A stretch of 64,000 nt of DNA from Bdellovibrionota bacterium (GTDB taxonomy: Bacteria > Bdellovibrionota_B > Oligoflexia > Oligoflexales > JAWKNZ01): NCBI GenBank assembly GCA_041391425.1, contig JAWKNZ010000006.1:219629-283628 (forward strand), given 5' to 3'. The translations under genes were made by a program, and so were the position numbers. Below are positions 39,615-60,362 of the stretch, in pieces. Each line of letters begins with the position of its first letter. The first letter of the stretch is position 1. The notes under the pieces are model-generated. The model ran no database searches. It worked only from the letters and a program-made list of their open reading frames with translations, and had not been told where the DNA came from.

Positions 39615-39617
39615 TTA

Positions 39618-42727: not shown

Positions 42728-42772
42728 CAAAAAAAGAGTTTATTTTTTATACTACACATTATTTCATTGTGC

Positions 42773-45202: not shown

Positions 45203-45715
45203 TCCTAAGTCTCTTAATTTTAGTGATGAAGGGTGTCTTGCTGTTTTCAAAAATATAGGCGTTTTGTCGCCAGCTTGCCTAGTTATAAGTCTTTAAAAAC
45301 AAAATGCAAATCCATATTTTTCTGCGTGTTTTATCTTTGCATGTTTCAGCTTGATTAATTTCAATTGCCTTAATGAAATACTTGTAATATTAATGCCTTA
45401 ATGTGTATGACAAGTTTGTGCTGGTTAGGCTAACAGTATATTTGAGAGTGGGAGACGATGCGTCAGAGTCTGCCATACTGTTGAATTTATACGCTTATCT
45501 GAAGTTTAGACATTATTGCTGACCAACTATTATGTAACATTATCGCTGATCTTCTTCAAAATAAGTAAATTTTTTTGTAAATAAATATCAAGTATAATAT
45601 ACTTAAATAATTAAACTTTTTAGAAATATCTAAATATTTTCTAAGCAATCCCGAATAGTATTTTGTAAATGCGCTGGTGAGTTAGCGTGAGGCACTTAGA
45701 GGGAACTTAGAATCC

Positions 45716-46567
45716 ATGACTAAAAGACTGCTAAAACAAAAGTCAAAGCTGATAAAGCCTAGCGGTTTTATGGATTATAGGCGCTACCTTGAGAGTCTTT
45801 ACAATTCAGTAAAGTCTGGCTCCTCAGAATATACTTATATGCAATTTGCTGAAGATTTGGGTTTTTCAGCAACGACAGTGATTCGCCAAATTGTTTCCAA
45901 AAGTCGGCCGTTGACGGTTAAGGCTGGGGAAAAAATTTCTGTAGCATTAAAATTAGTATCTATAGAGAAGCAGTATTTTTTAGAGCTAATCTCCTATTGT
46001 AATTCGAAAGAAACAAAGAAAAGAGATGTGCACTTTGCAAATTTGTTAAAGGTTCAGCAAAAGCTTTTACCAACATCACTGGATGAAGCGCATTTGGAAT
46101 ATTTCAAAGAGTGGTATCATCCAGTTATTAGAGAATTAGTGGGGCAAGCAGATTTTAGGGAGGATCCGAAGTGGATAGCAAAAAAACTTATCCCTTCGAT
46201 CCGTCCCGAACAAGCAAAAAGGAGTCTTATTCTATTAGAAAAGTTAGGTATGATAAAATTTGATAGGGTAACTGAGAAGTATGTTCAAGCTGAAAGTAGG
46301 GTGGATACTGGTCCTCGTGTTAAAGGAATTGGTTTAGCGAATTACCATAGGAAAATGATTGAGTTGGGTAAAGATGCGTTAACTGTTGTTCAAGCGAAAA
46401 AGCGAGATATTAGTGCGATTACTGTGGGAGTTGATGCTGAGACTGCTGCGAAGATGAAAGAGATGATACATGCATTTCAGGTTCAGTTACTTGAGGAAGC
46501 GGAAAAGACAGTAAAACCAGATCAAGTTTATCAAGTTAACATTCAGTTTTTTTCGATAGCTGAATGA
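45716..46567 (+). CDS. TIGR02147/DUF4423-like putative DNA-binding protein
   Basis: The N-terminal HTH-like region YRRYLESLYN...FAEDLGFSATTVIRQIVSKSRPL and the 283-aa length recall this family. The identification is from memory only. Confidence 0.6.
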   Translation: MTKRLLKQKSKLIKPSGFMDYRRYLESLYNSVKSGSSEYTYMQFAEDLGFSATTVIRQIVSKSRPLTVKAGEKISVALKLVSIEKQYFLELISYCNSKETKKRDVHFANLLKVQQKLLPTSLDEAHLEYFKEWYHPVIRELVGQADFREDPKWIAKKLIPSIRPEQAKRSLILLEKLGMIKFDRVTEKYVQAESRVDTGPRVKGIGLANYHRKMIELGKDALTVVQAKKRDISAITVGVDAETAAKMKEMIHAFQVQLLEEAEKTVKPDQVYQVNIQFFSIAE

Positions 46568-46579
46568 TGGGGTGGGGGT

Positions 46580-47260
46580 ATGCGACTGTTTATAAAAACA
46601 TCGTTGTTCGATAAAAACAAAAAAAAGTGGCACTTGCTTTCTCTCTTGGCAGCAGTCGTCTTCCCCGTCTCATGTGGCACTAGAGCTGGAAATCCTGATG
46701 ATGATAGTGGCATTGAAGTGAAAATTGTTAGTGAAGATTATAGTTCGCTTAATGAAGGTGCATTATTGCTTCTGCGGGGGGAGGAGTTTAAATTCTGTGT
46801 GGAAAAGTTGAAGTTGAAGGGAAAAGGTCGCGACGGGGCGTTGCCTGTTCATTTTGAGCCTGGTTTGATCGATGTGTCAAGTGGAGAAGCCGTAGAGTGG
46901 GGCACGGCTGTAACCTCGATGGGTACATATGATGAACTCAAAGTCACCTTAGCGGCTAATTCCGAAGTGTGTGGGGTAGATTATAGTCTTATTTATGGAC
47001 CATTGACGTTTTATGACCGAGTGACTTTAAAGTGGAGTTTTGAGCCTGAGATTGATGTGTATGATTCTAATGTTGCAATGTCGTTGGCCTTGGAAGAAAT
47101 AGTGGAATTACTGAAAGCTGGAATTGAAAATGATGATGATAGTGACACGTTGAAAATAAAAATTGAAAATGCGCAGAATAAAGGTGTGGGTAAGGATAAA
47201 TCGAAGGTTGCAACGGGAAAAGTTAATAAAAATGAAGGGGCTAATAAGCCTGGTAATTAG
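46580..47260 (+). CDS. lipoprotein, unknown function
   Basis: Lipobox VSCG. Sits 12 nt after the preceding gene, so a likely operon. Confidence 0.6.
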   Translation: MRLFIKTSLFDKNKKKWHLLSLLAAVVFPVSCGTRAGNPDDDSGIEVKIVSEDYSSLNEGALLLLRGEEFKFCVEKLKLKGKGRDGALPVHFEPGLIDVSSGEAVEWGTAVTSMGTYDELKVTLAANSEVCGVDYSLIYGPLTFYDRVTLKWSFEPEIDVYDSNVAMSLALEEIVELLKAGIENDDDSDTLKIKIENAQNKGVGKDKSKVATGKVNKNEGANKPGN

Positions 47261-47281
47261 AGCATAGAAGGGAAGTAGATC

Positions 47282-48229
47282 ATGGTTCTGTTTAAGAGAA
47301 AGATATTGTCAGTCTTTATTATACCGAGTGGCTTAATATTTTATGCGGCTTGTGGGGAGAAGAATACGGACACTGATGACGATAAATTAGTGATTAGTCA
47401 AGGTGTGCCTGGGAATTCGAGTGGAAGTAAAGGATCTGTGCAAGTTGATTTTAATAGTGCTAATTCTTCTTTGAGTTTAACTGAAGAATCAAGTTTAATG
47501 ATTGGTGATAGTATCGAGTTAACGCAAGCAAGATTTAGCATTGCTGCAATTAAAATAAAAACCGAGAAAGAACTGTCTGATGAAGAAGCCGAAATTGAAA
47601 AAATTGAAAAAGAGCACGAACTGGAAGAAGTAGAAAAAGTTGAAAAGACTGAAAGTGATGATGATTCAGCTGCTTTGGTTGATGGCAATGAAGCTAAACC
47701 TTCTAAAGATGGTTTAGCATCTAAAAAAGATGAGTTTAAAGCAGAGCAAGAAAACGAAGCAATGAAGGAAAAAGATCGCGATAAGTCTCTTAAATTTTCT
47801 GGCCCTTATGTATATGATGCATTAGCCGGTGTGTTAGAGGGAGATGCGATTGAGCCAACAGAGATGGTTGATGGAAGCTACCAACGTATTGAATTTAAGC
47901 TTAAACGTAATTGGGACGTTGATGAAGAAGATCCGTTGTTTGGAAATGTGTTTGTGATTCAAGGTAATAGAATTGATGGTGAAGATAAAGTTCCTTTTGA
48001 TGTATATTATCACATAGCTACAAATTTCCGTTTACATGGTGATGGTGATTTCTTTGTCGAAGCAGGCACTGATAATGAGTTGGAAATAGTGTTTGATCTT
48101 CAAAAATGGTTTGATGGGGTAGATTTGTCTGGCGTTGAAATTGCAGATGGAGAAAATAAAATTGTCATAGACAAGGACTCTAATCATGAAATTTTGAAAG
48201 CAATACGAAAAAATATAAGTAAATACTAG
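47282..48229 (+). CDS. lipoprotein with acidic coiled/low-complexity insert, unknown function
   Basis: Lipobox YAACG, with an E/K/D-rich insert. The C-terminal region is similar in style to the preceding lipoprotein. Confidence 0.6.
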   Translation: MVLFKRKILSVFIIPSGLIFYAACGEKNTDTDDDKLVISQGVPGNSSGSKGSVQVDFNSANSSLSLTEESSLMIGDSIELTQARFSIAAIKIKTEKELSDEEAEIEKIEKEHELEEVEKVEKTESDDDSAALVDGNEAKPSKDGLASKKDEFKAEQENEAMKEKDRDKSLKFSGPYVYDALAGVLEGDAIEPTEMVDGSYQRIEFKLKRNWDVDEEDPLFGNVFVIQGNRIDGEDKVPFDVYYHIATNFRLHGDGDFFVEAGTDNELEIVFDLQKWFDGVDLSGVEIADGENKIVIDKDSNHEILKAIRKNISKY

Positions 48230-48374
48230 GTTTGGTAGGATGATGATGGTGATGGTAGTCTTGATGAGGATGAAGTCGCGGGTGTTGGTGAAGAAGTGGC
48301 GGATGCTGGAGATGATGAGTCTGAAACTGCGAGTGAATAAATTCAAGTTGGAATGAAGGTGGAATTTAGATGCG

Positions 48375-48416
48375 CCGGCCCTTAAAAGATATCTCTTTTA
48401 AGGGCCGGATTTTTTT
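48375..48416 (+). terminator. strong rho-independent terminator
   Basis: A perfect 15-bp stem CCGGCCCTTAAAAGA / TCTTTTAAGGGCCGG with loop TATC, followed by A and then T7. Confidence 0.85.
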
Positions 48417-48697
48417 ATGAAGTAATAACTTTGAGATTGAGCTTACTAGAAATTATATTATGATTTTTTTGCTGGTGCTAGGCTAGTTCATGGATTCATT
48501 TAAATGGAAATTCAAAGGAAGGTTCAGTGGTTATAAGAGGATATGATTTGACCTAAGCACCAGCAAATGTTTTAAAGTCAGCCTTTCTTAGCTAACTGTC
48601 TCATTTCTTCTATGGTATGAGAGCTAGTATGAATAATTCATGAGAGAACCGTCCTTTACGTTTTTTTCGGTTAAAATAAGCTTTCGAAACTATCCTA

Positions 48698-48819
48698 TTA
48701 AGGGGGAGCAAAATCTATCAGACAAGGCTTGTCTAAAAAAATGACGAGATAGTAGCTTTAGTACAGTGACGGATGTTTTTTTAGGTGTAACGCAGCATGA
48801 TAGGTTTTGCTCCCTTTAA
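48698..48819. mobile_element. MITE family D, copy D2 (122 bp)
   Basis: TIRs TTAAGGGGGAGCAAAATCTAT / ATAGGTTTTGCTCCCTTTAA, flanked by TA/TA. The central part differs from D1. Confidence 0.75.
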
Positions 48820-48904
48820 TATGTGCAAGATATTGATGCATTGAGTTAAGTGAGTCTAAGTTATCTATTGATAATGATGAAGTTTTTTAATGCCTGACTT
48901 ATAT

Positions 48905-49064
48905 CCGATCCGAATTTCTAGCCGGTTGCGGCGTTGCTTCGTCGTCAGGAAATCCTCATGTACCAACATGTACACTGCGGTTTCCTACCTCCTTGCGCCT
49001 AGCACCTGAGCGAACTTCGAAACCGTTGAAAATACTACAGTTCTTCAAAAATTTCAAATCTCGG
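48905..49064. mobile_element. MITE family A, copy A3 (~160 bp)
   Basis: Collinear with A2 (minus its insert) and with the reverse complement of A1. Confidence 0.8.
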
Positions 49065-49086
49065 TTACATATGTGGAGGGTATTAT

Positions 49087-50763
49087 TTATAGGCCTATTA
49101 TATCGCCCGCTATAGGATCAATATCGATTTTACGGAATGATGGGAGAGAGCCTGTACCAGGCATTAATTTAAGATCACCACAGACTGGAATGGCGATCCG
49201 TGCCCCATGGTGGAATATTAAGTTATTGACGTCTAATGTGAAAGGTTGGGGTAAGGCTCCAAGATGTGGGTTATGGGTTAGACTGTATGGGGTTTTTGCT
49301 GTGCATAAATTATAATCATCAATAGCAAAGTTGCAATTGGCTTGTAACTGACGTTCAGCTTGATCGCTGAAACATACTTTATTTGCTCCATATATTTTTT
49401 GGGCAATAACTAAAACTTTTTCTTTAATCCCTAGATTTGTTGGGTATAAATACTTAAATGGTTTTTCTTTTATTGTTTTGACTTCTTTGAGCACTGTTTC
49501 AGCTAACTCTAAAGCTCCCTCTGAACCATTGGTGAAGTGTCTCGACGCCACAGCTGTTGTGCTGTTTTCTTTACACAGCTTTTGAAGTAGAAGGATATCT
49601 TTATCTGAGTCATGTTCATGGATGTTGATGCAAACAATAGGGTTGATGTTTGAGAGTTTAATAATATTGATGTGGTGTAACAAGTTAGCAAAGCCAGATC
49701 TTATTTTGTGCTTTTCTTGGGATATATTACAGTTGGCATGTGCTTTTATAGTGTCTATCGTAGCAACAAGAACTACTGCTGATGGGTGCATATTTGCTTG
49801 TCGGCATTTTATGTTCCAGAATTTTTCGTATCCGATGTCTGCGCCAAATCCTGATTCAGTTATATGGTAGTCGCAGAGTGAAAGGCCTATCCGGTCGGCG
49901 ATTACTGATGACTGGCCAATGCTAATATTTGCAAAAGGCCCGCTATGAATTAAAATGGGATTGCCTTCAAGCGTTTGAACTAAGTTAGGCTTAAATGCAT
50001 TTATTAAAAGAGCTGACATTGCACCTGCAACATTGAGATCTTCAGTCGTTATCCACTTATTTTGATTAGTGCTTGTAGTGTTAGAGCTCTTAGCGATAAC
50101 CATTTGCCCGATTTTTTTGCGCAGGTCTTTTAAATCTTTAGAGAGTGTTAAAATAGACATCACTTCGCTTGCAGCAGTCATTACGAAATTAGACCTTAGT
50201 TTTAGCGTCGCATTTATTTCACTATCGATTTGACGCAATGATTGAGCACACAAGTCGATAGCCCAGTTTTGACTGAGGGATGACCAGTCGAGGGAAAGGC
50301 GCTTTAAACCTTTTTCTTGTAATTGTTCATTTGTATCATGCTTTTCATGAATATATCGTGCTGAAGCAGCGACCATAGCTAAGTTTTGGGCATGAGTTAC
50401 TCTGTCCATATCGCCGGTTAGCCCTAAGGTTAAGAGATCTCTTGGTAGACAACGGCTTTTTCCACCACCGATGCCTGATCCTTTCAAATTGAAGGTTGGC
50501 CCTAATGATGATTGTCGTATTGCTGCAGTCGTTTTCACATTCAATTTTGATAAAGCGTCTAACAATCCGATTGTAACCGTAGTTTTTCCCACACCTTTCA
50601 TGCTGGGAGTAATGGCAGTTACATTTATTAGATGACTCTTTGTTTTTTGTATTCGTCTGTCTGGCAAGGTCCCTATGTTTATCTTGGCTACGTGGTCTCC
50701 ATAGCATGTATAGTCTTGTTTCTCTAAACCGAGTTTGGATGCAATTTCATCGATAGGTAGCAT
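49087..50763 (-). CDS. fhs: formate--tetrahydrofolate ligase
   Basis: 558 aa, with ITPSMKGVGKTT (P-loop-like) and the typical FTHFS N-terminus PIDEIA.KLGL. Confidence 0.95.
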   Translation of the reverse strand: MLPIDEIASKLGLEKQDYTCYGDHVAKINIGTLPDRRIQKTKSHLINVTAITPSMKGVGKTTVTIGLLDALSKLNVKTTAAIRQSSLGPTFNLKGSGIGGGKSRCLPRDLLTLGLTGDMDRVTHAQNLAMVAASARYIHEKHDTNEQLQEKGLKRLSLDWSSLSQNWAIDLCAQSLRQIDSEINATLKLRSNFVMTAASEVMSILTLSKDLKDLRKKIGQMVIAKSSNTTSTNQNKWITTEDLNVAGAMSALLINAFKPNLVQTLEGNPILIHSGPFANISIGQSSVIADRIGLSLCDYHITESGFGADIGYEKFWNIKCRQANMHPSAVVLVATIDTIKAHANCNISQEKHKIRSGFANLLHHINIIKLSNINPIVCINIHEHDSDKDILLLQKLCKENSTTAVASRHFTNGSEGALELAETVLKEVKTIKEKPFKYLYPTNLGIKEKVLVIAQKIYGANKVCFSDQAERQLQANCNFAIDDYNLCTAKTPYSLTHNPHLGALPQPFTLDVNNLIFHHGARIAIPVCGDLKLMPGTGSLPSFRKIDIDPIAGDIIGL

Positions 50764-51037
50764 AAAAAATCTGTTTTCCTAAGAAAATAAGAGTCGTTAT
50801 CAATTAGAATTATAGCATATGTTCGTTGATAAGGCAGGGAATTGTTTGTATTAAGGATTTTGGTGATAATATTATACCGACGGCTTTTTGATTTTATTAG
50901 TACTGGTAAATTAAAGGCCTATTAGGTATAGCTTTTCATGTGGACTAAGACTAAGAAAGTTTGCTCTTAGATAGGGTATGCTAGTCTTGTTTCCATTAAT
51001 TTCTAATAGAGAGCAATGAAAATTGAAGGAGTTGGCT

Positions 51038-51745
51038 ATGATATTTTTTTCAAGGAAAATTCTATTTTTAAGGCTTGCTGCAGTTTTATGTTTTCATATT
51101 TTATTTTCTGTAAAGGCATATTCGCAAGGAGCGGGTCCTGGATGGATGATGCATAATTCTATCAATGGGCCTATGTGTGTGGAAGGGCCTATGGCATTGA
51201 TGTGGGATGATGAAGTGTCATTAGGTGTTGAAAAATTGAAAGATGGGATTGCAATTAAGTGGACCACAAAAAATGCGACGAAAGTTAAAGATCTGCACGA
51301 AATGGGTGATCACTTGAAAGAGTTGAAGTCTCAAGTTTCGAAAGATAAAAATGGGATTAAAAGTGGATTTAGAGATCATATGAATTTGAGAGGCACGCGT
51401 CGACAAGGGAAGTGGGGGATGATGCAGGGGATGCGCCATGGATTTATGATGGGTTGGTATGGTGACCCAATACCGTCGACTCCAGCTTCTATTAAGAAGG
51501 GGAAGGCGCTATATGAGGAAAGCTGTCAGTCTTGTCATGGAAAAGAAGGTAGGGGAGATGGACCGGAGGCAAAAGGGTTAGCGGTGGTACCTGCTGATCT
51601 TGCAAGCTTGACAAAACGTTTCCCAAAACATCATTTCTACATGCAAATCGCTTATGGGAGGGGAGAAATGCCAGCTTGGAAGGATACTTATAGCACAGAA
51701 GATATCTGGCATCTTACTAATTATATTAGAGCTTTTTCAAAATAA
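51038..51745 (+). CDS. periplasmic mono-haem cytochrome c with Met/His-rich N-terminal region
   Basis: AAGGAG lies 6 nt before the ATG at 51038. It has a signal peptide, CQSCH plus a distal GEMPAW, and Met-rich stretches GWMMHNS and WGMMQGMRHGFMMGW. Confidence 0.75.
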   Translation: MIFFSRKILFLRLAAVLCFHILFSVKAYSQGAGPGWMMHNSINGPMCVEGPMALMWDDEVSLGVEKLKDGIAIKWTTKNATKVKDLHEMGDHLKELKSQVSKDKNGIKSGFRDHMNLRGTRRQGKWGMMQGMRHGFMMGWYGDPIPSTPASIKKGKALYEESCQSCHGKEGRGDGPEAKGLAVVPADLASLTKRFPKHHFYMQIAYGRGEMPAWKDTYSTEDIWHLTNYIRAFSK

Positions 51746-51826
51746 ACAGAAAGTCTTTATAATTCTTATAGGGATGAGTTTCTCCTTTGGAGAGGAGTCT
51801 GATGGGGGTGTTCATTTGCAAAAATA

Positions 51827-51854
51827 AGCACCCTTTCTGAAAGTGCTTTTTTTT
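51827..51854 (+). terminator. weak rho-independent terminator candidate
   Basis: AGCAC...GTGCT is a 5-bp stem followed by a T8 run. Confidence 0.4.
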
Positions 51855-51965
51855 GATTGATTTAGAAATTCCGTCATCAAACAGCTTCTAAAGAAAAGTT
51901 ATGTTATCATATGAGCTGGATAAATGAACAGAATCTGGTGATCACCAATAGGGAAGTGTTTTTTG

Positions 51966-53453
51966 ATGATTGATCGTTTCAAGCTGACATGGATATTGAC
52001 ATTATTAGTCTTTTTTTTATTAATGTTAATTAGCAGTAACAATCCTTTGAAGGCAGAGCCTTGGTTGGGCACACGGTTTGCTCAAAATTGTGCGGGGTGT
52101 CATGCTCCGCAAAGGCTTAATACCCAGCCGCGCGATCGTCGATGTACTTTGTCATGTCAAGGATGCCATGTAAATCCTAACGGAGGGGGACTGCGTAGCT
52201 TTTATGGAAAGTGGAATGGCAACCACTGGTTGAAAAGCTACCGTTCGAGCATGCTTGGTCATAAGAAAAATTTTGCTCCTTTTAAGAAACAACGCTATGG
52301 AAAAAAGCCATATAAAAAGGGAGTGGTCTCAGAGTCAATCATTCGTAATAAAGGGCTGCCCCTTGTCGAGCAAGAAGCTCCTATGGATGAATCTCTTTAT
52401 GATAGGCGTTATGGACGTTCTAAAATTATCGTGACTGATCGTTCGGAATATTTATATAGTGTTCCTGAATCAGATCCTTGGCGCCAAATGGGGGAAACTA
52501 AATATAATGCAGGTGCTGACGCCAGGTGGTTTTTGTCATCGACATCTACTGATTCTAACGGTGCAAAGAAGAAAGATGATAACAAGAATTTTTTGATGAG
52601 TGTTGATTTTGGATTAGAGTACCGACCTGTATATCGAAAATTTCACTTAGTATATGAGAATCGCTTTTTTGGAGACCCGCGCTCATCAGGGTCGACTGAA
52701 AAGACTTTGGTGTTGGCACAAAATAATGCTACTCGCAGTCTTTATGCTTTAGTTGATGACTTGCCATGGAATATTTTTGTAATGGGAGGCTATTACCGTC
52801 CTCTTTTTGGTAATCAAGTCCCTGATCATGATGCTCTTGCTCAGCAAATGCAGTCGATTATAATGTCGGATAGTCCATTTGCGCAAAATCTCAGATATAG
52901 CGCTATTTCTATTGGTACGGCGCCTAATGTACCTTATTTGAACGTGCATGTTATCCAAAAGCGCTTGGGTAAGGAAAATGACAAAACTAGAGGGTTTGGT
53001 ACAAACGCGGGCCTTCGCTTTGTAACATTAGGTGGCTCACTGAACTATTCCTATTGGCGGACAAGAGATGATCAAGGAGACGAAGGAATTACTGAAACGG
53101 TTATGCATTCCATTGGTTTTGGAATGCAGATAAAACGGTTTACCTTATTTTATGAGGGTATTAGTATGACGCGCGATACTCCTAAAGATTTTAGAGAAGG
53201 TGGGGTGCATTCCGTAGATACTTATACTCGTGTTTGGCGAGAGCTTTATTTGCTTGCAAATTATTCTGTTGCTAACACTTCTGTCAGTGTTACCTCTGGA
53301 GTGGCAAGGCAGTATAAAACTGGAGTTCGAACTTTTTTATATCCGGGAGTTGATCTTTCATTGTTGTATGCATCTACCTTGAATGATGATTATTTAGCGG
53401 ATAGTAAAATTGAAAGGTCTGGAATTACGGGGCAGGTTCATATGTATTTTTAG
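51966..53453 (+). CDS. predicted outer-membrane beta-barrel protein with two N-terminal CXXCH haem-binding motifs
   Basis: N-terminal hydrophobic signal. CAGCH is at 52089-52103 and CQGCH at 52155-52169. About 420 aa follow with amphipathic-strand character, ending ...ITGQVHMYF. Confidence 0.6.
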   Translation: MIDRFKLTWILTLLVFFLLMLISSNNPLKAEPWLGTRFAQNCAGCHAPQRLNTQPRDRRCTLSCQGCHVNPNGGGLRSFYGKWNGNHWLKSYRSSMLGHKKNFAPFKKQRYGKKPYKKGVVSESIIRNKGLPLVEQEAPMDESLYDRRYGRSKIIVTDRSEYLYSVPESDPWRQMGETKYNAGADARWFLSSTSTDSNGAKKKDDNKNFLMSVDFGLEYRPVYRKFHLVYENRFFGDPRSSGSTEKTLVLAQNNATRSLYALVDDLPWNIFVMGGYYRPLFGNQVPDHDALAQQMQSIIMSDSPFAQNLRYSAISIGTAPNVPYLNVHVIQKRLGKENDKTRGFGTNAGLRFVTLGGSLNYSYWRTRDDQGDEGITETVMHSIGFGMQIKRFTLFYEGISMTRDTPKDFREGGVHSVDTYTRVWRELYLLANYSVANTSVSVTSGVARQYKTGVRTFLYPGVDLSLLYASTLNDDYLADSKIERSGITGQVHMYF

Positions 53454-53465
53454 TATGAGGCAGAT

Positions 53466-54243
53466 GTGGCAGCTAGTAAAATCTTACATAAAATAGAATC
53501 TTTGAGTATTCAGCCAGTTTCGTAGTTTGGGCGTTATGTCTTATTTTGTCGTAATGCTTTCAAGCAAATATATAGTCCCCCGTTAGCATGAGGTTACTTA
53601 TCCAGCAGATGGAGTTTGTTGGTCAACAGAAGCTTTTAATTATCGTTCTAGCTGCAATTATGATAGGTGCTGTCTTTGGCCTTCAGTTTGGCGAGATTTT
53701 TAGAATCTTTGGAGCGGAGTCTATGATAGGAGCCGCAGCAGCATATGCTTTGTCTAAAGAGTTAGCGCCTGTCGTTGGCTCTTTTCTTGTTACTGGACGG
53801 TCAGGATCGGCGATGGCAGCAGAAATTGCTACCATGCGCGTTAACGAACAGATTGATGCTAGAAGGTTATGTCGGTTGATCCCATTGGTTACTTGGCAGC
53901 TCCGCGAATCTTGGCATCTATTCTTATTATGCCATTGCTTGCAGGAGTCTTCACTTTTTTTGGAGTTCTTTCAGCATTTGTTGTTGGGGTTTTGGCCTAT
54001 GATGTCGATGTTGGCGTGTTTTTTGAAAAAATTAAATGGATTAGCCAACCTGAGCATATTGTTCAAGGGATAATTAAGGCTATGATTTTTGGCGCTATTT
54101 TTTCTTCCATAGGGTGTTTTAAAGGATTTACTGCTGCAGGAGGTGCTAAAGGGGTAGGGACAGCGACCACTAAAGCTGTTGTTATTTCTTTAGTGGCGAT
54201 ATTAATTTCTGATTTTTTTATCAGCTATATTCAGATGGATTGA
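53466..54243 (+). pseudogene. mlaE: MlaE-like ABC transporter permease remnant (one in-frame TAG plus two frameshifts)
   Basis: The MlaE-like sequence is spread over three frames. Frame 0 has ...SKILHKIESLSIQPVS-TAG(53523)-FGRYVLFCRNAFKQIYSPP. Then come MRLLIQQMEFVG...AAEIATMRVNEQIDA and MSVDPIGYLAAPRILA...KGVGTATTKAVV. Junctions are at the C5 run 53577-53581 and about 53858-53868. No mlaF or mlaD is adjacent. Confidence 0.75.
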
Positions 54244-54328
54244 ATGGAAACTTAATTTCTTAACGTGTTTATAAAATAAATGTATTCTGCTATAAGCTCC
54301 TCAATACCTTATTTAGGCTTAGAGGAGC

Positions 54329-55060
54329 TTAAACTTTATCTCCAACCGTTTGAATTATGAGCACGAGGAACAGATTGTTCCGATAAACTGCTTGTTTGAA
54401 CATATGACCGTCAGCAATAACTCCCTCACCCACCTTGAGTGTTACCATAATGGCATCCCCTTGCATCATTGAAGCAACTTGACTTGACGACGCGTCTGGT
54501 TGGCTATGTACTGGTGTATTATTGGCTGTTATGTACCTAACAACCCTCGAACCATCACCTTGCGGAACAATTGCTCCAGAGGTATTTGCAGGCACAGCGG
54601 TATTTGTAGGTACATTTGTTGCTGCGGTATTTGTAGGTACATTTGTTGCTGCGGTATCTGTACCATAGTTATATTGGCCGCTAGCATCTGCTTGTTGTAA
54701 ATTATTATTGTATAGGTTGCCTGTATTTCCATAGTCGCCGCCTTCAGTGGAGGGGTTAGCTTCTACTGCAGTATTGCCTTCACTGGCGGTATTGTCATTG
54801 TAATTATAATTGCCTTCTCCGTAATTTCCGGCGACTTCTTCGTTTTCTTCATCATCACCGTAGTTCTCACTTTGATTTCCTGCTTCTTGATAAGATTCTT
54901 CACCTTCTTCTTGTTCTTGACCGTCTTGCTCTAAGCTTTCATCATCTTGCTGAGAACTAGAGCATGCATGAGTTGTAAGAGCTAATGACAGAGTGAATCC
55001 TAATATACGTAGAATGTGGTTTAGGTTGTGATTGATCATATTGTTACCCTTTCTTTCCAT
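54329..55060 (-). CDS. lipoprotein with acidic/Asn-rich low-complexity region
   Basis: Lipobox LTTHAC. Has D/E/N/G/Y-rich repeats, and an internal 27-bp tandem duplication at 54599-54652. Confidence 0.55.
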   Translation of the reverse strand: MERKGNNMINHNLNHILRILGFTLSLALTTHACSSSQQDDESLEQDGQEQEEGEESYQEAGNQSENYGDDEENEEVAGNYGEGNYNYNDNTASEGNTAVEANPSTEGGDYGNTGNLYNNNLQQADASGQYNYGTDTAATNVPTNTAATNVPTNTAVPANTSGAIVPQGDGSRVVRYITANNTPVHSQPDASSSQVASMMQGDAIMVTLKVGEGVIADGHMFKQAVYRNNLFLVLIIQTVGDKV

Positions 55061-55571
55061 CGTTTACCAGTAGATGACCTCGATGCCTTTAACTTATTCC
55101 AAGTTCATGGAAGTCATACGACATAAAGGAATCAATTTGGATTACTGAGCTGTTCGGAGAGGGTTGCGAATACTTTAACGATATATTTTAACTTCTGCGC
55201 AAAAAAAATTGTTGATATCAAAATGTTATCTGATTTTTTTGCTAAATTTGTATTTATTTTTGATTTTGTAAAATATAATTTTATCACTTGTCATGTGTCT
55301 TATGTGTTCATTTTAACTTTTGCGACCCTCATTTACTTTACTTATAGATTGGGCTTAAATTTTCTAATAATTCCTTCTTTATTAATATAAGACATTATCG
55401 CTGATCTGACTTTAACTGGATTAGAAATAATACTGGATATTTAGGTTTTAAAAGAGAAGCAATAAAGTTATTAAAAATTTCATATCATTGATCTGCACTA
55501 ATTTCTTTATCTAGAGATTATTAAAAAATTGTAAGAGATGTCTGACTTCTATGCTGTTTTATAAAAATATC

Positions 55572-55690
55572 GTAACTATTCAGCGTATTTTTTATCTGAT
55601 CGATTCAAAGCCTTGACTGCCCGTCATCCTCATATAGATGACGATGTATCAAGCGACATATTGAAGGGAAAAGATACGCTGAATAGTTAC
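55572..55690. mobile_element. MITE family C, copy C3 (119 bp)
   Basis: Same TIRs as C1. The 8-bp TSD AAAATATC sits at 55564-55571 and 55691-55698. Confidence 0.85.
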
Positions 55691-55822
55691 AAAATATCTT
55701 ACTATCGGTATACTGTCGAGAACAAAGCCCTTCAGACAATTTTTGTGCTTGAAAGGTTTTGTTGGTTATATGACGGGTTTTTTCTTTATGCTTTGATTTC
55801 CTTCATAATAGGTACTATTTAG

Positions 55823-56434
55823 TTAGACTTTGTTTTGTGTTAGTGCTTCAACCCATAAGCGTGTGGCGTGATAACGATGGCTAATTTGGTTTTTTACTTC
55901 GTTGCCAAGTTCGGCCATAGTTTGGTGGTACCCATCGGGGATAAAGATTGGATCATAGCCAAATCCGTCCTTTCCTTTGGGGTGCAAGGCGATAGTGCCT
56001 TGGCAACGGCCTTCGAATACAGATCGAGTCCCATTTTCGGAAATAAACACTAAACAACAGACAAACGCCGCGCGACGATCTGGCTCTGAGATTTTAGCCA
56101 ATTCGTTTAATAACTTTATATTATTCTGTTCATCATCACCTTCAGTCCCTGCATAGCGGCTAGAAAAAATCCCAGGAGCATTATTTAGAGTGAATACCTC
56201 TAGGCCTGAATCGTCTGCAAGCACAGCTTCAGATGTAAATTTTCTTACTTCAATGGCTTTGATTAATGCGTTTTCGAAGAAGCTTTGACCGCTTTCTACC
56301 CATTGTATGTTGTTTGAGAGGGTAGATAACTTTTTGATTTTACAAATACTTCCAGCTAGTTGCTGCATTTCTGCTATTTTGTGCTGATTGTTGCTTGCAA
56401 GAAATACTGGCCTTGGTTTATCAATATAGGGCAT
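55823..56434 (-). CDS. rdgB: dITP/XTP pyrophosphatase (RdgB/HAM1 family)
   Basis: Motifs FLASNNQHK, DDSGLEV, GFGYDPIF and SHR. I prefer the ATG at 56432-56434 after a GAGGA. The ORF stays open up to a GTG at 56455. Confidence 0.85.
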   Translation of the reverse strand: MPYIDKPRPVFLASNNQHKIAEMQQLAGSICKIKKLSTLSNNIQWVESGQSFFENALIKAIEVRKFTSEAVLADDSGLEVFTLNNAPGIFSSRYAGTEGDDEQNNIKLLNELAKISEPDRRAAFVCCLVFISENGTRSVFEGRCQGTIALHPKGKDGFGYDPIFIPDGYHQTMAELGNEVKNQISHRYHATRLWVEALTQNKV

Positions 56435-56576
56435 TGTGTTTCCTCTAGTTTTCACGTGTTAGGTCTATGCTTTATGAAAATATATGAAATGCATCGATAA
56501 GACACTCGCATATTAGGTAAAAGGAACGCTGCGATAGAGCACTGTTTAACACAAAAAAATAAAGAAAGTAATCGAT

Positions 56577-56801
56577 ATGAGTCCAGAGGAGATTAGGGAA
56601 AAATTATTAATATCGTTTCCAGATGCAGAAGTTAATGCGCGTGATTTGACTGGTGGTGGTGATCATTGGCAGGTGGATATCCGCTCTGGCGCATTTGCTG
56701 GAAAGAGCCTTGTTGAGCAACATCAATTGGTGTATGCAGCATTGGGCGATTGGATGAAAGAAAAAATCCATGCCCTTGCTTTGAATACTTCAGAAATTTA
56801 A
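56577..56801 (+). CDS. BolA-family protein
   Basis: 74 aa, with ...GGGDHWQVDIRSGAFAGKSLVEQHQLVYAALGDWMKEKIHALAL.T pattern. Confidence 0.8.
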   Translation: MSPEEIREKLLISFPDAEVNARDLTGGGDHWQVDIRSGAFAGKSLVEQHQLVYAALGDWMKEKIHALALNTSEI

Positions 56802-56815
56802 TAATATTTTTTATC

Positions 56816-58666
56816 TTATTTTTCTTTAAGCCGGCTGAGCCTGTAATCATAGGCTGAGTTCATTGCGAACATATTGTCTATTCCTAGATACCGTCCGTTT
56901 AGAGTAAAATTGTGAATCTCTAAAGCGGCTCGAATTCCTGAAAAGTGTGCCCCATGCACACTAGCGGGCTGTGAGTTTAGAGCTACAGCTTCGCCGGCCC
57001 AAAATAAATTAGGTGAAACAGTTGGATCTGAAAGAATTTTTCTTGCGTATTGGACAGGAACTGATTCGCTATCGTGGACGGCTAGATAAGAGTTTCCGCC
57101 TTTTGCCCAGGGGTCTTTCATCCATTCTGTTCTTTGAATCATATAGCTATCTCTATTTGTGGGTTTCTTTTTTTTGCGTAGAAACTTTAACGTCCCTTGT
57201 GCTTCTGGAAACATGCGATCTAGGTCGCTGCAGATAGCTTCCATTACAGTGTCATTATCCCAAATGCTGATAGTTTCTGCATCTTCTGCCATGATTAATG
57301 CGGTAAGGACAGCAGGTTTTGACGGATCATTACCAAAGACATGAAAATATGATTTACCAGCTTTTCTCGGTATCCCAGTTGTTTTGGCAGCTTTACCGTT
57401 CATATTAAAATGCATTAAATCTTTCGCAGATGCCTGTGGGATATGTGCCATGCTCATATCTTTGGGCCAAAATTTTTTATCGAATACCATTTGGATCTTA
57501 GTGTGGTGTCCTGCTTTAATTGTTTTTAATGCTTCAAGCTTACGTTCGTGTAATGGAGGTGAAAATTCAACACTTCCGCTATTAAGCATGCCTACCGCAA
57601 ATGTGCAAATGGCGGTTTTTGCTCTAAATTGTTTGTGAGATCCATTATCGTCGACGGCATCGATAATAACGCCTTCCCCTGCTTTTTGTCCGTATGTGAT
57701 TTTTTCAATTTTGTGGCTTAACATAATATTGAGGTTTTCTGCCATGCGATCACATAATGATCCATAACCACCTGTTAGATACCATTCATGCCTTTCTTTT
57801 AATTGTTTGCTTAAATAGTCTGCAGCAAATCCATGGATACTTATTTCATTTAAGGGTCCGGGCATGTGACCTGTAAGAGTCATGGCTACAAAGTCTCGTC
57901 CTAATTCGTCATCCATATATTTTTCTTTGATCCATTGTTCTGCGCTTAGATCTTTTTTATGTGTTTGTAATGAATTGTCTATTAGAGGAAACATTTTGGC
58001 GGCGCTTATGATATTCCACTGGAGGGCAGCCTCTAACGAAGACATTTTTTTTGCCTTGGAGTGATGAAAAATAAGACCTTTTCCAAGTTTTTCAATTTCG
58101 ACCCAATTAAGCTTATAACGTTCAATTTCTGCCCATATAGGGGTTTCGTAAGAAAATTCTTTATTGGTGAATAGCTTTTCGAAATTGAATGGTAAATCAA
58201 GCGGTGGTTTTCTGTGGACGAATTCCGCTCCAAGCTCAATGGGCCAGTTTTCTCCAGGAAAAAAATCTCTTTTAGTATGTATGCGACCTCCAATTCTATT
58301 ATTTCCTTCGATGACGATGACACTTTGTGGACGATAATTAATTTTCTTTTTACCATTAAAAAAAGTTGTACTCAAAAAATCTGGTCTAGATAAGTATTGG
58401 GCTGCAGTCAACCCGGCAATACCGGCTCCAAGTACTAAGACGTCAGCTTCATAAATGTTATTTTTCGATGATGTGGATTGAGGCTTATTTTTTGTTATCG
58501 GGCTTGTCTGACAGCTGCTTAGCAACTTATTGCCAAGTATTCCAGTTGCAGCAATTGTTGTTCCATATTGGAGAGAGCTTTTAATAAACTCTCTGCGTTT
58601 TTGTACCGGTGAAGTGCTAATTTTGTCTGCTTGTGGGAGTGTTACCTGCGTCTTTTTTTTGTCCAT
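56816..58666 (-). CDS. FAD-dependent amine oxidase, Tat-exported
   Basis: Twin-arginine-like KRREFIKSS plus a hydrophobic stretch. The dinucleotide fold is VLVLGAGIAGLTAA. The C-terminal WAGEA...HGA is typical of flavin amine oxidases. Confidence 0.8.
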   Translation of the reverse strand: MDKKKTQVTLPQADKISTSPVQKRREFIKSSLQYGTTIAATGILGNKLLSSCQTSPITKNKPQSTSSKNNIYEADVLVLGAGIAGLTAAQYLSRPDFLSTTFFNGKKKINYRPQSVIVIEGNNRIGGRIHTKRDFFPGENWPIELGAEFVHRKPPLDLPFNFEKLFTNKEFSYETPIWAEIERYKLNWVEIEKLGKGLIFHHSKAKKMSSLEAALQWNIISAAKMFPLIDNSLQTHKKDLSAEQWIKEKYMDDELGRDFVAMTLTGHMPGPLNEISIHGFAADYLSKQLKERHEWYLTGGYGSLCDRMAENLNIMLSHKIEKITYGQKAGEGVIIDAVDDNGSHKQFRAKTAICTFAVGMLNSGSVEFSPPLHERKLEALKTIKAGHHTKIQMVFDKKFWPKDMSMAHIPQASAKDLMHFNMNGKAAKTTGIPRKAGKSYFHVFGNDPSKPAVLTALIMAEDAETISIWDNDTVMEAICSDLDRMFPEAQGTLKFLRKKKKPTNRDSYMIQRTEWMKDPWAKGGNSYLAVHDSESVPVQYARKILSDPTVSPNLFWAGEAVALNSQPASVHGAHFSGIRAALEIHNFTLNGRYLGIDNMFAMNSAYDYRLSRLKEK

Positions 58667-58748
58667 TGTTTCTCCAAAAGATTTCGTTTGCTGAATAACT
58701 ATATTCTATGACATAGATTTATATAAATCAGTTTTATATAAAAATAAG

Positions 58749-58874
58749 GTAACTATTCAGCGTATCTCTTCCCTTCAATATGTCGCTTGACTGCCCGTCA
58801 TCCTTCGCTTCACTCAGGATGACGGGCAGTCAAGGCTTTGAATCGATCAGATAAAAAATACGCTGAATAGTTGC
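58749..58874. mobile_element. MITE family C, copy C4 (126 bp)
   Basis: TIRs as in C1, with one mismatch. The 8-bp TSD AAAATAAG sits at 58741-58748 and 58875-58882. Confidence 0.85.
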
Positions 58875-60347: not shown

Positions 60348-60362
60348 TGATGGGCTTAATTT

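What the first reader, a model, noticed from the sequence alone, without database searches (positions are those of the whole stretch)
51038..53453. Met-rich cytochrome c next to an outer-membrane barrel carrying two CXXCH motifs: a possible compact porin-cytochrome module
Seen in sequence:
- ORF 51038..51745 has a signal peptide and Met/His-rich stretches (GWMMHNS, HEMGDH, WGMMQGMRHGFMMGWYG).
- It also has a single class-I haem c site (CQSCH with a distal GEMPAW).
- About 220 bp downstream, ORF 51966..53453 has an N-terminal signal/anchor.
- That ORF has two CXXCH motifs within its first ~70 residues (CAGCH at 52089-52103 and CQGCH at 52155-52169).
- About 420 residues with amphipathic-strand character follow, ending in ...GQVHMYF. 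An aromatic C-terminal residue is typical of BAM-assembled barrels.

Established knowledge: known trans-outer-membrane electron conduits (MtrAB(C), PioAB/MtoAB, Geobacter porin-cytochrome complexes) keep the porin and the cytochrome as separate polypeptides. Met-rich motifs are typical of Cu(I)-handling periplasmic proteins (CopA/PcoA/CusF-type).

Inference: a barrel with covalently attached haems at its N-terminus, paired with a Met-rich cytochrome c, could be a minimal electron or Cu/Fe-redox conduit across the outer membrane. I do not recognise a characterised family with this architecture.
Basis: partly seen in the sequence, partly recalled or inferred. Interest (0 to 1): 0.7.

Follow-up and report, generated by a model that had tools for sequence, protein, structure and literature searches.

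The report
Two-haem cytochrome fused to a porin
One gene encodes an outer-membrane pore with two covalent haem sites on its own N-terminus, a conserved and apparently undescribed Bdellovibrionota family that resembles the iron-oxidising protein Cyc2 in layout but not in sequence; its pairing with the Met-rich cytochrome next door is not conserved.

Summary
Both ORFs, all motifs and all coordinates check out.

ORF B (51966..53453) is predicted with confidence to be a 16-strand porin-type barrel (AF2 pLDDT 86.5, pTM 0.84; Foldseek E about 1e-11 to OmpT, PorB and OprP). It carries an N-terminal two-haem module.

It belongs to a tight family with no Pfam or NCBIfam model. There are about 350 clusters at 50% identity and 161 species genomes, almost all Bdellovibrionota. 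Of 188 full-length members, 184 keep both CXXCH motifs, at a fixed 22-residue spacing. A fifth Cys (C60) and H288, H492 and M211 in the barrel part are also kept.

The claim that no fused cytochrome-porin is known is wrong. Cyc2 is one. However, ORF B fails Cyc2's defining motif, has two haems, and shows no significant profile similarity to Cyc2-like sequences. I file it as a new variant of a known kind.

The "module" with ORF A is not supported. ORF A has no homologue in 84 related loci. Its Met-rich half is an orphan predicted to be disordered. Its closest relatives lie beside CusA/CzcA-type metal-efflux genes.

About a quarter of related loci do carry some unrelated c-type cytochrome gene next to the barrel gene. 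Electron transfer across the outer membrane is the best functional guess and is untested.

The parts
51966..53453 (+). ORF B (MEZ4742617.1, annotated as hypothetical): a fused two-haem cytochrome c and 16-strand outer-membrane barrel, 495 aa
   Evidence: The ORF is listed. The AF2 model has pLDDT 86.5 and pTM 0.84. Foldseek matches porins.
51966..52055 (+). Signal peptide of ORF B (aa 1-30, ...NNPLKA|EPW). The mature N-terminus, [AGS]E[PL]W (AEPW in ORF B), is conserved.
   Evidence: Read from the sequence: a basic n-region, a hydrophobic core and an A-x-A-like site. No SignalP was run. The [AGS]E[PL]W motif starts a fixed 12 residues before the first CXXCH in 176 members.
52053..52235 (+). 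Two-haem module (aa 30-90): AEPWLGTRFAQN-CAGCH-...RRC-TLS-CQGCH-VNPNGGGLRSFYGKW. This is the most conserved part of the protein.
   Evidence: Conservation index is 0.82, against 0.49 for the barrel. Invariant columns are listed.
52089..52103 (+). First haem c attachment motif, CAGCH (C42, C45, H46)
   Evidence: Coordinates are. It is kept in 98% of 188 members.
52143..52145 (+). C60, a fifth conserved and unpaired cysteine, four residues before the second motif. It may be a haem axial ligand or a free thiol (inference).
   Evidence: It is 99% conserved. Of 188 members, 101 have exactly five Cys.
52155..52169 (+). Second haem c attachment motif, CQGCH (C64, C67, H68)
   Evidence: Coordinates are. 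It is 99% conserved. The spacing to the first motif is 22 residues in 182 of 184 members.
52236..52460 (+). Variable linker (aa 91-165). Some homologues carry long charged insertions here, so it is presumably periplasmic (inference).
   Evidence: Conservation index is 0.36. Insertions are seen in P0012 and P0018 and in P0163 and P0166.
52503..53450 (+). 16-strand beta-barrel (aa 180-495) with short extracellular loops L4-L8 and the C-terminal signature Q-x-H-x-[YF]-[FLMY]
   Evidence: Strands come from DSSP on the model. Foldseek gives E 1.7e-11 to 1e-9 against OmpT, PorB, OmpU and OprP. Residues alternate between hydrophobic and conserved polar. The C-terminal residue is F in 120 of 188 members.
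52797..52895 (+). Long loop L3 (aa 278-310, RPLFGNQVPDHDALAQQM) with a helix. By position it corresponds to the porin constriction loop. It carries H288 (nt 52827-52829), a candidate distal haem ligand.
   Evidence: Secondary structure is. H288 is 98% conserved. It is replaced together with M211 in P0173, P0195 and P0198.
53439..53441 (+). H492, in the polar (lumen-facing) phase of the last strand near the periplasmic rim. It is conserved in all members and is the best candidate for a distal haem ligand (inference).
   Evidence: It is 100% conserved in 188 members.
51038..51745 (+). ORF A (MEZ4742616.1, annotated as cytochrome c). It has a signal peptide; two Met-rich segments (aa 36-57 and aa 125-142) that fall within the segments predicted disordered (aa 26-57 and 106-137); a small hairpin-plus-helix unit; and a class-I monohaem cytochrome c domain (aa 145-235; CQSCH at nt 51524-51538; Met ligand within GEMPAW at nt 51662-51679). 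It is adjacent to ORF B but is not a conserved partner.
   Evidence: In the AF2 model the cytochrome c domain has pLDDT above 90, and aa 26-57 and 106-137 are below 50.
51826..51856 (.). Intergenic hairpin AAGCAC...GTGCTT followed by T8. It is a weak terminator-like site between ORF A and ORF B.
   Evidence: The scan reports it on the minus strand. On the plus strand the stem is only 6 bp, followed by T8 (sequence). It is suggestive only.

Best explanation
**What ORF B is**
ORF B is a self-contained outer-membrane cytochrome-porin. After signal-peptide cleavage at ...LKA|EPW, the periplasmic cytochrome c maturation system would attach two haems to CAGCH and CQGCH. These motifs lie within a 60-residue, almost invariant module at the mature N-terminus. 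A variable linker follows and stays in the periplasm. The chain then forms a 16-strand, BAM-assembled barrel of the general-porin fold.

**How it most likely works (inference)**
I infer that the two-haem module docks into the periplasmic mouth or lumen of its own barrel. Conserved barrel residues would supply the distal ligands and packing. The candidates are H492, on the lumen face of the last strand near the periplasmic rim, and H288, on the inward-folding loop L3. M211 and C60 are further candidates. The two haems would then form a short wire from the periplasmic rim towards the constriction.

The most likely function is electron exchange across the outer membrane. One partner would be a small soluble extracellular redox species that enters the short-looped pore, with Fe2+/Fe3+ as the prime candidate. 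The other would be soluble periplasmic c-type cytochromes. This works like Cyc2 but with one extra relay haem. The direction of transfer and the substrate are unknown.

**ORF A**
ORF A is a separate periplasmic monohaem class-I cytochrome c. It has disordered Met-rich extensions of a kind associated elsewhere with metal (copper) efflux loci. In this genome it may happen to serve as a redox partner, but it is not a dedicated component.

**Shown versus inferred**
- Shown by computation: the motifs, their conservation, the predicted barrel fold, the family's distribution and the lack of synteny.
- Inferred: haem attachment, docking into the barrel, ligand identity and electron-conduit function.
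For: **Fold**
- AF2 gives pLDDT 86.5 and pTM 0.84, with 16 strands from aa 180-494.
- The top 50 Foldseek PDB hits are nearly all outer-membrane beta-barrel proteins, mostly general 16-strand porins, with E 1.7e-11 to 2e-8.
- Strands alternate between hydrophobic and conserved polar positions.
- The C-terminal residue is F, Y, W, L, M or I in 187 of 188 members.

**Haem sites**
- Two CXXCH motifs are present in 184 of 188 full-length members that are 29-59% identical to ORF B. Two of the four exceptions are N-terminally truncated gene calls.
- The spacing is fixed at 22 residues and the offset from the mature N-terminus at 12 residues.
- The module is the most conserved region, with index 0.82.

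**Candidate ligands in the barrel part**
- H492 is 100% conserved and lies in the polar phase of its strand.
- H288 is 98% conserved and lies in L3.
- M211 and H288 are lost together in three divergent members.
- C60 is 99% conserved and unpaired.

**Placement of the N-terminal part**
- A pTM of 0.84 for the whole chain implies that the 150-residue N-terminal part is placed confidently relative to the barrel. This is my inference from the score.

**Neighbouring genes**
- 22 of 85 loci have another CXXCH-protein gene within 500 bp. They belong to unrelated families, including PSCyt1-like and P460-like proteins. This fits a need for some periplasmic cytochrome partner.

**Precedent**
- Cyc2 is a fused monohaem cytochrome and 16-strand porin with iron-oxidase activity. 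Its cytochrome is proposed to plug the periplasmic mouth of the barrel (PMC8406198).
Against: - There is no experimental evidence of haem attachment, outer-membrane location or redox activity for any member of the family.
- I could not inspect model coordinates. Docking of the haem module in the barrel and the ligand assignments are therefore unverified.
- M211 falls in the hydrophobic, lipid-facing phase of its strand, which argues against it being a ligand.
- Bdellovibrionota are aerobic heterotrophs or predators with no known iron-based energy metabolism (my own background knowledge, not tested here). The family includes the cultured Pseudobacteriovorax antillogorgiicola (WP_132318633.1).
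- The gene has no conserved redox operon around it.
- There is no detectable sequence relationship to Cyc2.
- The enrichment of cytochrome genes among neighbours is modest. By my rough count it is about three-fold over the wider flanks. Related loci are also not phylogenetically independent.
Confidence: 0.55

Rival explanations
1. ORF A and ORF B form a dedicated two-gene porin-cytochrome module. The Met-rich cytochrome would be the obligatory periplasmic partner, possibly handling Cu(I) or Fe(II) delivered through the barrel.
For: - The genes are adjacent, on the same strand and 220 bp apart.
- They are the only two CXXCH ORFs in the 64-kb window.
- About a quarter of related loci have some cytochrome gene next to the barrel gene.
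Against: - tblastn with ORF A finds no homologue in any of 84 loci that carry an ORF B homologue.
- No neighbour family is shared by more than 12 of 85 loci.
- Only aa 145-235 of ORF A has homologues in 5.8 billion proteins. The full architecture is seen once.
- The closest relatives of ORF A lie beside CusA/CzcA-type RND and TolC-like genes, not beside barrels of this family.
- A hairpin followed by a T8 run lies between the genes.
Confidence: 0.1
2. ORF B is a surface redox enzyme rather than a conduit. An example would be a two-haem peroxidase-like or thiol/sulfur-reactive catalyst. One haem would be low-potential, possibly His/Cys-ligated through C60, and would act as the active site. It would detoxify H2O2 or other oxidants at the cell surface, or act on prey-derived substrates.
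For: - An invariant unpaired Cys sits next to the second haem motif. From established knowledge, His/Cys-ligated haems are typical of catalytic or sulfur-handling cytochromes such as TsdA, SoxA and DsrJ.
- The host phylum is aerobic and predatory and has no known iron respiration (my own background knowledge).
- The weak best PDB sequence hits include MauG, but with E about 1.7, which is not significant.
Against: - There is no significant similarity to the CCP/MauG, TsdA or SoxA families.
- Nothing is known about the ligation state.
- A porin barrel is not needed for a purely periplasmic or surface enzyme.
Confidence: 0.15
3. ORF B is essentially a substrate channel. The haems would be structural or regulatory, making a redox-gated plug that controls solute flow, rather than electron carriers.
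For: - The closest folds are diffusion porins, including the anion-specific OprP/OprO.
- The lumen-facing charged residues R187, E231, R233 and R351 are conserved.
Against: - Extreme conservation of a two-haem module with fixed spacing is typical of electron-transfer units.
- I know of no precedent for haem-gated porins.
- Cytochrome-gene neighbours point to redox partners.
Confidence: 0.1
4. ORF B is a divergent true member of the Cyc2 family and an Fe(II) oxidase. On this reading it is already known in kind and in family.
For: - The overall layout is the same: a signal peptide, a haem motif about 12 residues into the mature chain, then a 16-strand barrel.
- The N-terminus is loosely similar: A-x-P-x ... 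F-A-[QR] ... CXXCH. hhalign aligns the two N-termini.
Against: - None of 188 members matches the defining motif PXFAR[QK][TY]-x5-CXXCH.
- ORF B has two haems rather than one.
- hhalign of the family profile against two Cyc2-like sequences gives a probability of 6%. The template was shallow and rebuilt from frameshifted contigs.
- A profile search of 1.84 billion proteins lists only this family among its best 150 hits.
Confidence: 0.07

Closest known systems
Cyc2 fused cytochrome-porin (Acidithiobacillus ferrooxidans Cyc2, Mariprofundus Cyc2PV-1, Leptospirillum Cyt572; Keffer et al. 2021, PMC8406198)
   Same: - It is a single polypeptide with a signal peptide.
- A c-type haem motif lies a few residues into the mature N-terminus.
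- A predicted 16-strand porin barrel follows, structurally like OprP/OprO.
- The cytochrome part is far more conserved than the barrel.
- The cytochrome is proposed to sit at the periplasmic mouth of its own barrel.
   Different: - ORF B has two CXXCH motifs, 22 residues apart, plus a fifth conserved Cys. Cyc2 has one motif.
- ORF B lacks the defining PXFAR[QK][TY]-x5-CXXCH and PXL motifs (0 of 188 members).
- There is no significant profile similarity.
- A linker of about 75 residues separates the haem module from the barrel.
- The barrel itself is well conserved, with invariant His residues.
- The hosts are Bdellovibrionota, not known iron oxidisers.
- There is no cyc1, rus or cox neighbourhood.
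MtrAB(C), PioAB/MtoAB and Geobacter porin-cytochrome complexes
   Same: They are trans-outer-membrane electron conduits in which a haem chain is sheathed by a beta-barrel.
   Different: - They use separate polypeptides.
- Their barrels have 26 strands (20 or more in Geobacter).
- They carry chains of 8 to 10 or more haems.
- Their operons are conserved.
- ORF B has 16 strands, two haems and one gene. Its Pfam hit to an MtrC/MtrF domain is noise (E 0.22).
General diffusion porins (OmpT/OmpU of Vibrio, PorB of Neisseria, OmpF, OprP/OprO)
   Same: The 16-strand barrel fold matches (Foldseek E 1.7e-11 to 1e-9, TM normalised to the target 0.5-0.69). There is also a long third loop with a helix.
   Different: - No porin Pfam or NCBIfam model matches, even at E up to 1.
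- Sequence identity is 7-12%.
- ORF B has a 150-residue N-terminal haem-bearing extension.
- Its extracellular loops L4-L8 are very short.
Met-rich periplasmic copper proteins (Met-rich regions of CopA/PcoA/CueO, CusF, PcoE/SilE). This comparison is for ORF A only.
   Same: ORF A has Met-rich segments (12 Met in 116 residues) that are predicted disordered. Its relatives lie beside CusA/CzcA-type efflux genes.
   Different: - ORF A's only recognisable domain is a class-I cytochrome c (PF13442).
- There is no homology to any copper-protein family.
- Copper binding is untested.

Membership tests
Cyc2 fused cytochrome-porin family | A single CXXCH haem-binding motif | tested here: not met
   Two motifs are present in ORF B and in 184 of 188 family members. 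One natural mono-haem deletion variant exists (P0199).
Cyc2 fused cytochrome-porin family | The consensus (A)XPXFAR[Q/K][T/Y] located 5 residues upstream of CXXCH (PMC8406198) | tested here: not met
   ORF B reads AEPWLGTRFAQN-CAGCH. None of 188 members matches the pattern. The same pattern is clearly present in Cyc2-like fragments that I retrieved with a synthetic consensus query.
Cyc2 fused cytochrome-porin family | A PXL motif 4 residues downstream of CXXCH | tested here: not met
   ORF B has CAGCH-APQRLN. P is at +2 and L at +5, and the P-x-L spacing is absent.
Cyc2 fused cytochrome-porin family | A 16-strand porin barrel fused C-terminally, with total length of at least 365 aa | tested here: met
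   The AF2 model has 16 strands and the protein is 495 aa. Foldseek hits include OprP (2o4v) and OprO (4rjx), a different entry of the same phosphate porin that Cyc2 was likened to (4RJW).
Cyc2 fused cytochrome-porin family | Sequence or profile homology (FeGenie Cyc2 HMMs) | tested here: inconclusive
   The FeGenie HMMs were not available. As a substitute I ran hhalign of alignment A1 against two Cyc2-like sequences rebuilt from frameshifted contigs. The probability was 6%, which is not significant, but the template was very shallow.
Cyc2 fused cytochrome-porin family | Fe(II) oxidase activity | not testable with these tools
   This needs biochemistry.
MtrB/PioB-type porin-cytochrome complexes | A large (about 26-strand) barrel encoded next to a separate deca- or multi-haem MtrA/PioA-type cytochrome | tested here: not met
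   ORF B has 16 strands. There is no multihaem MtrA-like neighbour in the window. No neighbour is conserved across loci.
General bacterial porins (Pfam Porin_1, Porin_4, Porin_O_P) | A match to a curated porin profile | tested here: not met
   There is no porin family hit at E up to 1 in Pfam or NCBIfam. Only the fold is similar.
Class-I c-type cytochromes (ORF A) | CXXCH with a distal Met in a Cytochrome_CBB3 or Cytochrom_C domain | tested here: met
   PF13442 scores E 7.8e-15 (55 bits, cut-off 27) and PF00034 scores E 1.9e-9. CQSCH and the Met of EMPAW are invariant in alignment A4. The domain has pLDDT above 90.
Di-haem cytochrome c peroxidase / MauG | A match to the CCP_MauG profile or to solved MauG/CCP chains | tested here: not met
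   There is no Pfam hit. The PDB profile search gives MauG at E about 1.7, covering only the CXXCH region.

The most novel reading that the evidence does not exclude
This Bdellovibrionota family would be a minimal, single-polypeptide trans-outer-membrane electron wire. Two haems would be held inside a 16-strand barrel by ligands from the barrel wall and from loop L3. It would have evolved independently of Cyc2. It would give predatory and heterotrophic Bdellovibrionota an unrecognised capacity for extracellular electron exchange, such as Fe(II) oxidation, Fe(III) or metal reduction for uptake, or redox interaction with prey. One haem might carry unusual His/Cys ligation through C60.
Probability: 0.3. 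Interest if true: 0.78.

Novelty: new variant of a known kind. Interest (0 to 1): 0.6.

Why it matters
- **A second origin of the design.** Cyc2 is so far the only recognised cytochrome fused to its own porin, and it is used as the marker gene for neutrophilic iron oxidation. A second, sequence-unrelated family with two haems would show that this minimal design arose more than once.
- **An engineering template.** It would offer a very small, one-gene template for trans-membrane electron conduits.
- **A gap in metagenomic surveys.** Surveys that search for Cyc2 by its motif would miss this family.
- **An unexpected host phylum.** It would raise the question of what extracellular redox chemistry a largely predatory, aerobic phylum performs.
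- **Testability.** The family is present in a cultured organism, Pseudobacteriovorax antillogorgiicola (WP_132318633.1 / A0A1Y6BMP1), so it can be tested directly.

Tried and rejected
1. **Conserved ORF A-ORF B pairing: rejected.** tblastn with ORF A found nothing in 84 loci. Clustering of neighbour ORFs found no family in more than 12 of 85 loci.
2. **Curated families for ORF B: none found.** Pfam and NCBIfam at E up to 1 gave only noise around the CXXCH motifs: GEGP diheme at E 0.13, the MtrC/F domain at E 0.22 and Cytochrome_CBB3 at E 0.28. A profile search of PDB sequences gave only cytochrome c6 and MauG at E of 1 or more.
3. **Retrieving Cyc2 for a homology test: only partly successful.**
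   - The paper's supplements held no sequences.
   - The third attempt returned only N-terminal fragments of 47-81 aa.
   - The three contigs behind them were long-read assemblies with frameshifts. I rebuilt two approximate full-length sequences by hand.
   - A global hhalign run was meaningless. A local run gave a probability of 6%.
4. **P0063 lookup: failed.** The exact sequence was not on record in the contig index.
5. **Literature: nothing found.** I found nothing on two-haem porins or on cytochrome-porins in Bdellovibrionota. I also found no experimental Cyc2 structure.
6. **H328 as an essential ligand: rejected.** It is replaced by N, S, T, Y or A in about 10% of members.
7. **M211 as a ligand: weakened.** It lies in the lipid-facing phase of its strand.
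8. **A riboswitch or structured leader between the genes: rejected.** The intergenic fold has z -0.3, and there are no Rfam or tRNA hits in the window.
9. **A folded Cu-binding domain in ORF A's N-terminal half: not seen.** AF2 predicts the Met-rich segments as disordered. The alignment is shallow there, so this is weak evidence.


Full report
**1. The observation**

ORF A (51038..51745, +, 235 aa) has a signal-like N-terminus. It contains the stretches GWMMHNS, HEMGDH and WGMMQGMRHGFMMGWYG. It also has CQSCH (nt 51524-51538) with a downstream GEMPAW.

ORF B (51966..53453, +, 495 aa) starts 220 bp downstream. It carries CAGCH at 52089-52103 and CQGCH at 52155-52169, and it ends in GQVHMYF.

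These features are not chance.
- A and B are the only ORFs of at least 100 aa with a CXXCH motif in all six frames of the 64-kb window. About 0.09 motifs would be expected from composition.
- ORF A's residues 30-145 hold 12 Met in 116 residues, against a 2.2% background (P about 1e-5). His is not enriched.

The window comes from a MAG labelled 'Bdellovibrionota bacterium'. ORF B is MEZ4742617.1 (annotated as hypothetical) and ORF A is MEZ4742616.1 (annotated as cytochrome c).

**2. What ORF B is**

No Pfam or NCBIfam model matches ORF B, even at E up to 1. The few weak hits cover only the CXXCH region.

An AF2 model built on a 42-sequence alignment is confident (pLDDT 86.5, pTM 0.84). It shows a helical signal peptide, an N-terminal region of about 150 residues with short helices, and 16 beta-strands from aa 180 to 494.

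Foldseek against the PDB returns nearly only outer-membrane beta-barrel proteins, mostly general 16-strand porins. Hits include Vibrio OmpT/OmpU, Neisseria PorB, OprP/OprO and OmpF, with E 1.7e-11 to about 1e-8 and TM (target-normalised) 0.5-0.69 at 7-12% identity.

Along the strands, hydrophobic positions alternate with polar positions, and the polar positions are the more conserved. The family ends in Q-x-H-x-[YF]-[F/L/M/Y], and the last residue is F in 120 of 188 members. This fits a BAM-type C-terminal signal (established knowledge).

Turn and loop lengths taken from the model are as follows.
- Periplasmic turns are 2-5 residues.
- Extracellular loops L4-L8 are unusually short, at 4-7 residues.
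- L3 is long (aa 278-310) and contains a helix.

**3. The family**

A word-indexed search found 355 homologues, all unnamed. An exhaustive profile search of 1.84 billion representatives found 352 clusters at 50% identity with E up to 1e-3. The best 150 are all this family or fragments of it.

In one-genome-per-species GTDB contigs, 161 stretches encode a relative. The 80 best loci break down as follows.
- 66 carry Bdellovibrionota names (Oligoflexales, Oligoflexus, Pseudobacteriovorax, Silvanigrellales, Bdellovibrionales, Pseudobdellovibrionaceae).
- 11 carry generic (Delta)proteobacteria labels.
- 3 carry odd labels (Lindowbacteria, Chlamydiales and a 'Streptomyces' MAG) that may be binning artefacts.

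Some genomes have two copies. A cultured organism has one: Pseudobacteriovorax antillogorgiicola, WP_132318633.1 / A0A1Y6BMP1.

Among 188 full-length members that are 29-59% identical to ORF B, 184 keep both CXXCH motifs. Two of the four exceptions are N-terminally truncated gene calls, one has an H-to-Y change, and one lacks the module altogether.

The geometry of the module is fixed.
- The [AGS]E[PL]W motif at the mature N-terminus (AEPW in ORF B) starts exactly 12 residues before the first motif in 176 members.
- The two motifs are exactly 22 residues apart in 182 of 184 members.

The module (aa 30-90) is the most conserved part of the protein, with index 0.82 against 0.49 for the barrel and 0.36 for the linker at aa 91-165. 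Some members carry long charged insertions in the linker, which argues that this stretch lies outside the barrel.

Other conserved residues are C60 (99%), M211 (98%), H288 (98%, in L3), H492 (100%, polar phase of the last strand) and H328 (90%). Most members have exactly five Cys, so C60 is unpaired.

In three divergent members M211 and H288 are replaced together, while both haem motifs and H492 stay. One member (P0199) is a natural deletion variant with a single haem motif.

**4. The pairing with ORF A**

- tblastn with ORF A finds nothing in any of the 84 related loci.
- When all neighbour ORFs within 6 kb are clustered, no family occurs in more than 12 of 85 loci.
- In 5.8 billion proteins, only ORF A's C-terminal cytochrome c domain (about 40% of the protein) has homologues. 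The full architecture is seen only in this MAG.
- AF2 gives the cytochrome c domain pLDDT above 90 and predicts both Met-rich segments as disordered. The alignment is shallow there.

The two closest relatives, both from SAR324, also have Met-rich N-termini. They lie next to CusA/CzcA-family RND transporters, TolC-like outer-membrane factors and a DUF411 fragment. This indirectly supports a metal-handling (copper) context for this kind of cytochrome and points away from ORF B.

A short hairpin followed by T8 lies between the genes. It is weak on the + strand.

A looser association does exist. In 22 of 85 loci some other CXXCH ORF of at least 100 aa lies within 500 bp of the barrel gene. These ORFs are of at least seven unrelated kinds, including PSCyt1-like di- to tetra-haem proteins, P460-like repeat proteins and 850-aa Ig-repeat cytochromes. 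They are often divergent or convergent with the barrel gene. By my rough count this is about three times the density in the wider flanks. The loci are not phylogenetically independent, so I treat it as a hint that the barrel protein works with whatever periplasmic cytochrome is at hand.

**5. Mechanism**

*Shown by computation:*
- a predicted outer-membrane barrel;
- two conserved canonical haem c attachment sites in a compact module at the mature N-terminus;
- conserved His residues in the barrel part.

*Inferred:*
- The haems are attached by the organism's cytochrome c maturation system. ORF A shows that the organism makes c-type cytochromes.
- The module docks into the periplasmic mouth or lumen of its own barrel. 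A whole-chain pTM of 0.84 suggests that the N-terminal part is placed confidently against the barrel.
- H492, at the periplasmic rim, and H288, on the inward loop L3, act as distal ligands. The two haems would then bridge from the rim towards the constriction.

Two closely spaced haems extend the reach of electron transfer by roughly one haem diameter compared with Cyc2. For Cyc2, Keffer et al. argued that Fe2+ must enter the pore to reach the single haem at the periplasmic mouth (PMC8406198). The very short outer loops would leave the pore mouth open.

I therefore favour an electron conduit between a small extracellular redox species and periplasmic cytochromes. The direction and the substrate are unknown.

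I could not read the model coordinates with the tools available, so the docking geometry is untested. M211 falls in the lipid-facing phase of its strand, so its role is unclear. The role of C60 is also unexplained; it could be a His/Cys ligand or a free thiol.

**6. Comparison with known systems**

The statement that known conduits always keep porin and cytochrome separate is incorrect. Cyc2 is a fused monohaem cytochrome and 16-strand porin, with demonstrated iron-oxidase activity in several lineages (PMC8406198).

ORF B shares that layout but fails the published membership criteria.
- It has two haem motifs rather than one.
- None of 188 members has PXFAR[Q/K][T/Y]-x5-CXXCH.
- The PXL motif is absent.

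To test homology I retrieved Cyc2-like N-terminal fragments with a synthetic consensus query. I then rebuilt two full-length Cyc2-like sequences from frameshifted contigs. One of them is followed by two c-type cytochrome genes, which I take to resemble the cyc2-cyc1 arrangement, although their haem count and relationship to Cyc1 were not checked. hhalign of the family profile against these sequences gave a probability of 6%. The template was shallow, so a remote relationship is not excluded.

MtrAB and PioAB-type complexes differ in barrel size, haem number and gene organisation.

I found no paper describing a two-haem porin or a cytochrome-porin in Bdellovibrionota.

**7. Verdict**

The haem-bearing barrel is real, conserved and unannotated. 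The two-gene module and the 'no precedent' premise are not supported.
- I classify ORF B as a new variant of a known kind: a fused cytochrome-porin with two haems, apparently independent of Cyc2.
- Interest is moderate to high. The architecture claim is strong. The function is plausible but untested, and it is surprising for this phylum.

Noticed in passing
window 53588..54243 (+): This looks like a remnant of an MlaE-like permease gene. It is short at the N-terminus and frameshifted near 53870, giving two overlapping ORFs (53588-54073 and 53869-54243). The identification as MlaE-like is by eye and no profile search was run on it. Intact homologues of about 255 aa lie convergent, on the opposite strand, just downstream of the ORF B homologue in L009, L010, L013, L014, L015 and L078. 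This suggests a local inversion and decay, or a MAG assembly error.
   Followed up: partly
L088 1-5498 and L089 125-3979 (SAR324 contigs): The closest relatives of ORF A's cytochrome c domain (P0257, P0258) also have Met-rich N-termini. They sit directly beside CusA/CzcA-family RND, TolC-like and DUF411 genes. Together they may form a small, undescribed class of 'Met-rich cytochrome c' linked to metal efflux.
   Followed up: partly
L022 6752-11217; L042 6842-7786; L029, L031 and L082 upstream; L043, L053 and L055 downstream; L044, L045, L054, L061: Unrelated c-type cytochrome genes lie within 500 bp of the ORF B homologue in 22 of 85 loci. They include PSCyt1-like di- to tetra-haem proteins, tandem P460-like repeats and 850-aa Ig-repeat cytochromes.
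   Followed up: partly
window 52143..52145 (C60 of ORF B): This is a fifth, unpaired cysteine, 99% conserved, in RRC-TLS-CQGCH. It could be a His/Cys haem ligand or a reactive thiol. It remains unexplained.
   Followed up: no
P0199 (family member, 360 aa): This is a natural deletion variant in which the two haem motifs are merged into one (AEPWFVNRFDEQCAHCHVNPNGGG) and the linker is missing. It amounts to a mono-haem, Cyc2-like version of the family.
   Followed up: no
L085 3001-5933 (ENA contig_46966): This is a frameshifted Cyc2-like gene (VPSFARQTGYYCSTCH...) followed by two c-type cytochrome genes of about 220 aa each (their haem number was not checked). It came from a long-read metagenome and was used here only as a comparison sequence.
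   Followed up: partly
window 45716..48229 (+): A TIGR02147/DUF4423 protein (E 4.6e-64) is followed by two acidic proteins, apparently lipoproteins, with no family. The second (47282..48229) has a weak MbnP hit (E 0.046), which is probably noise.
   Followed up: no
window 1..64000: There are no tRNA genes and no Rfam family at gathering score anywhere in the 64 kb.
   Followed up: yes
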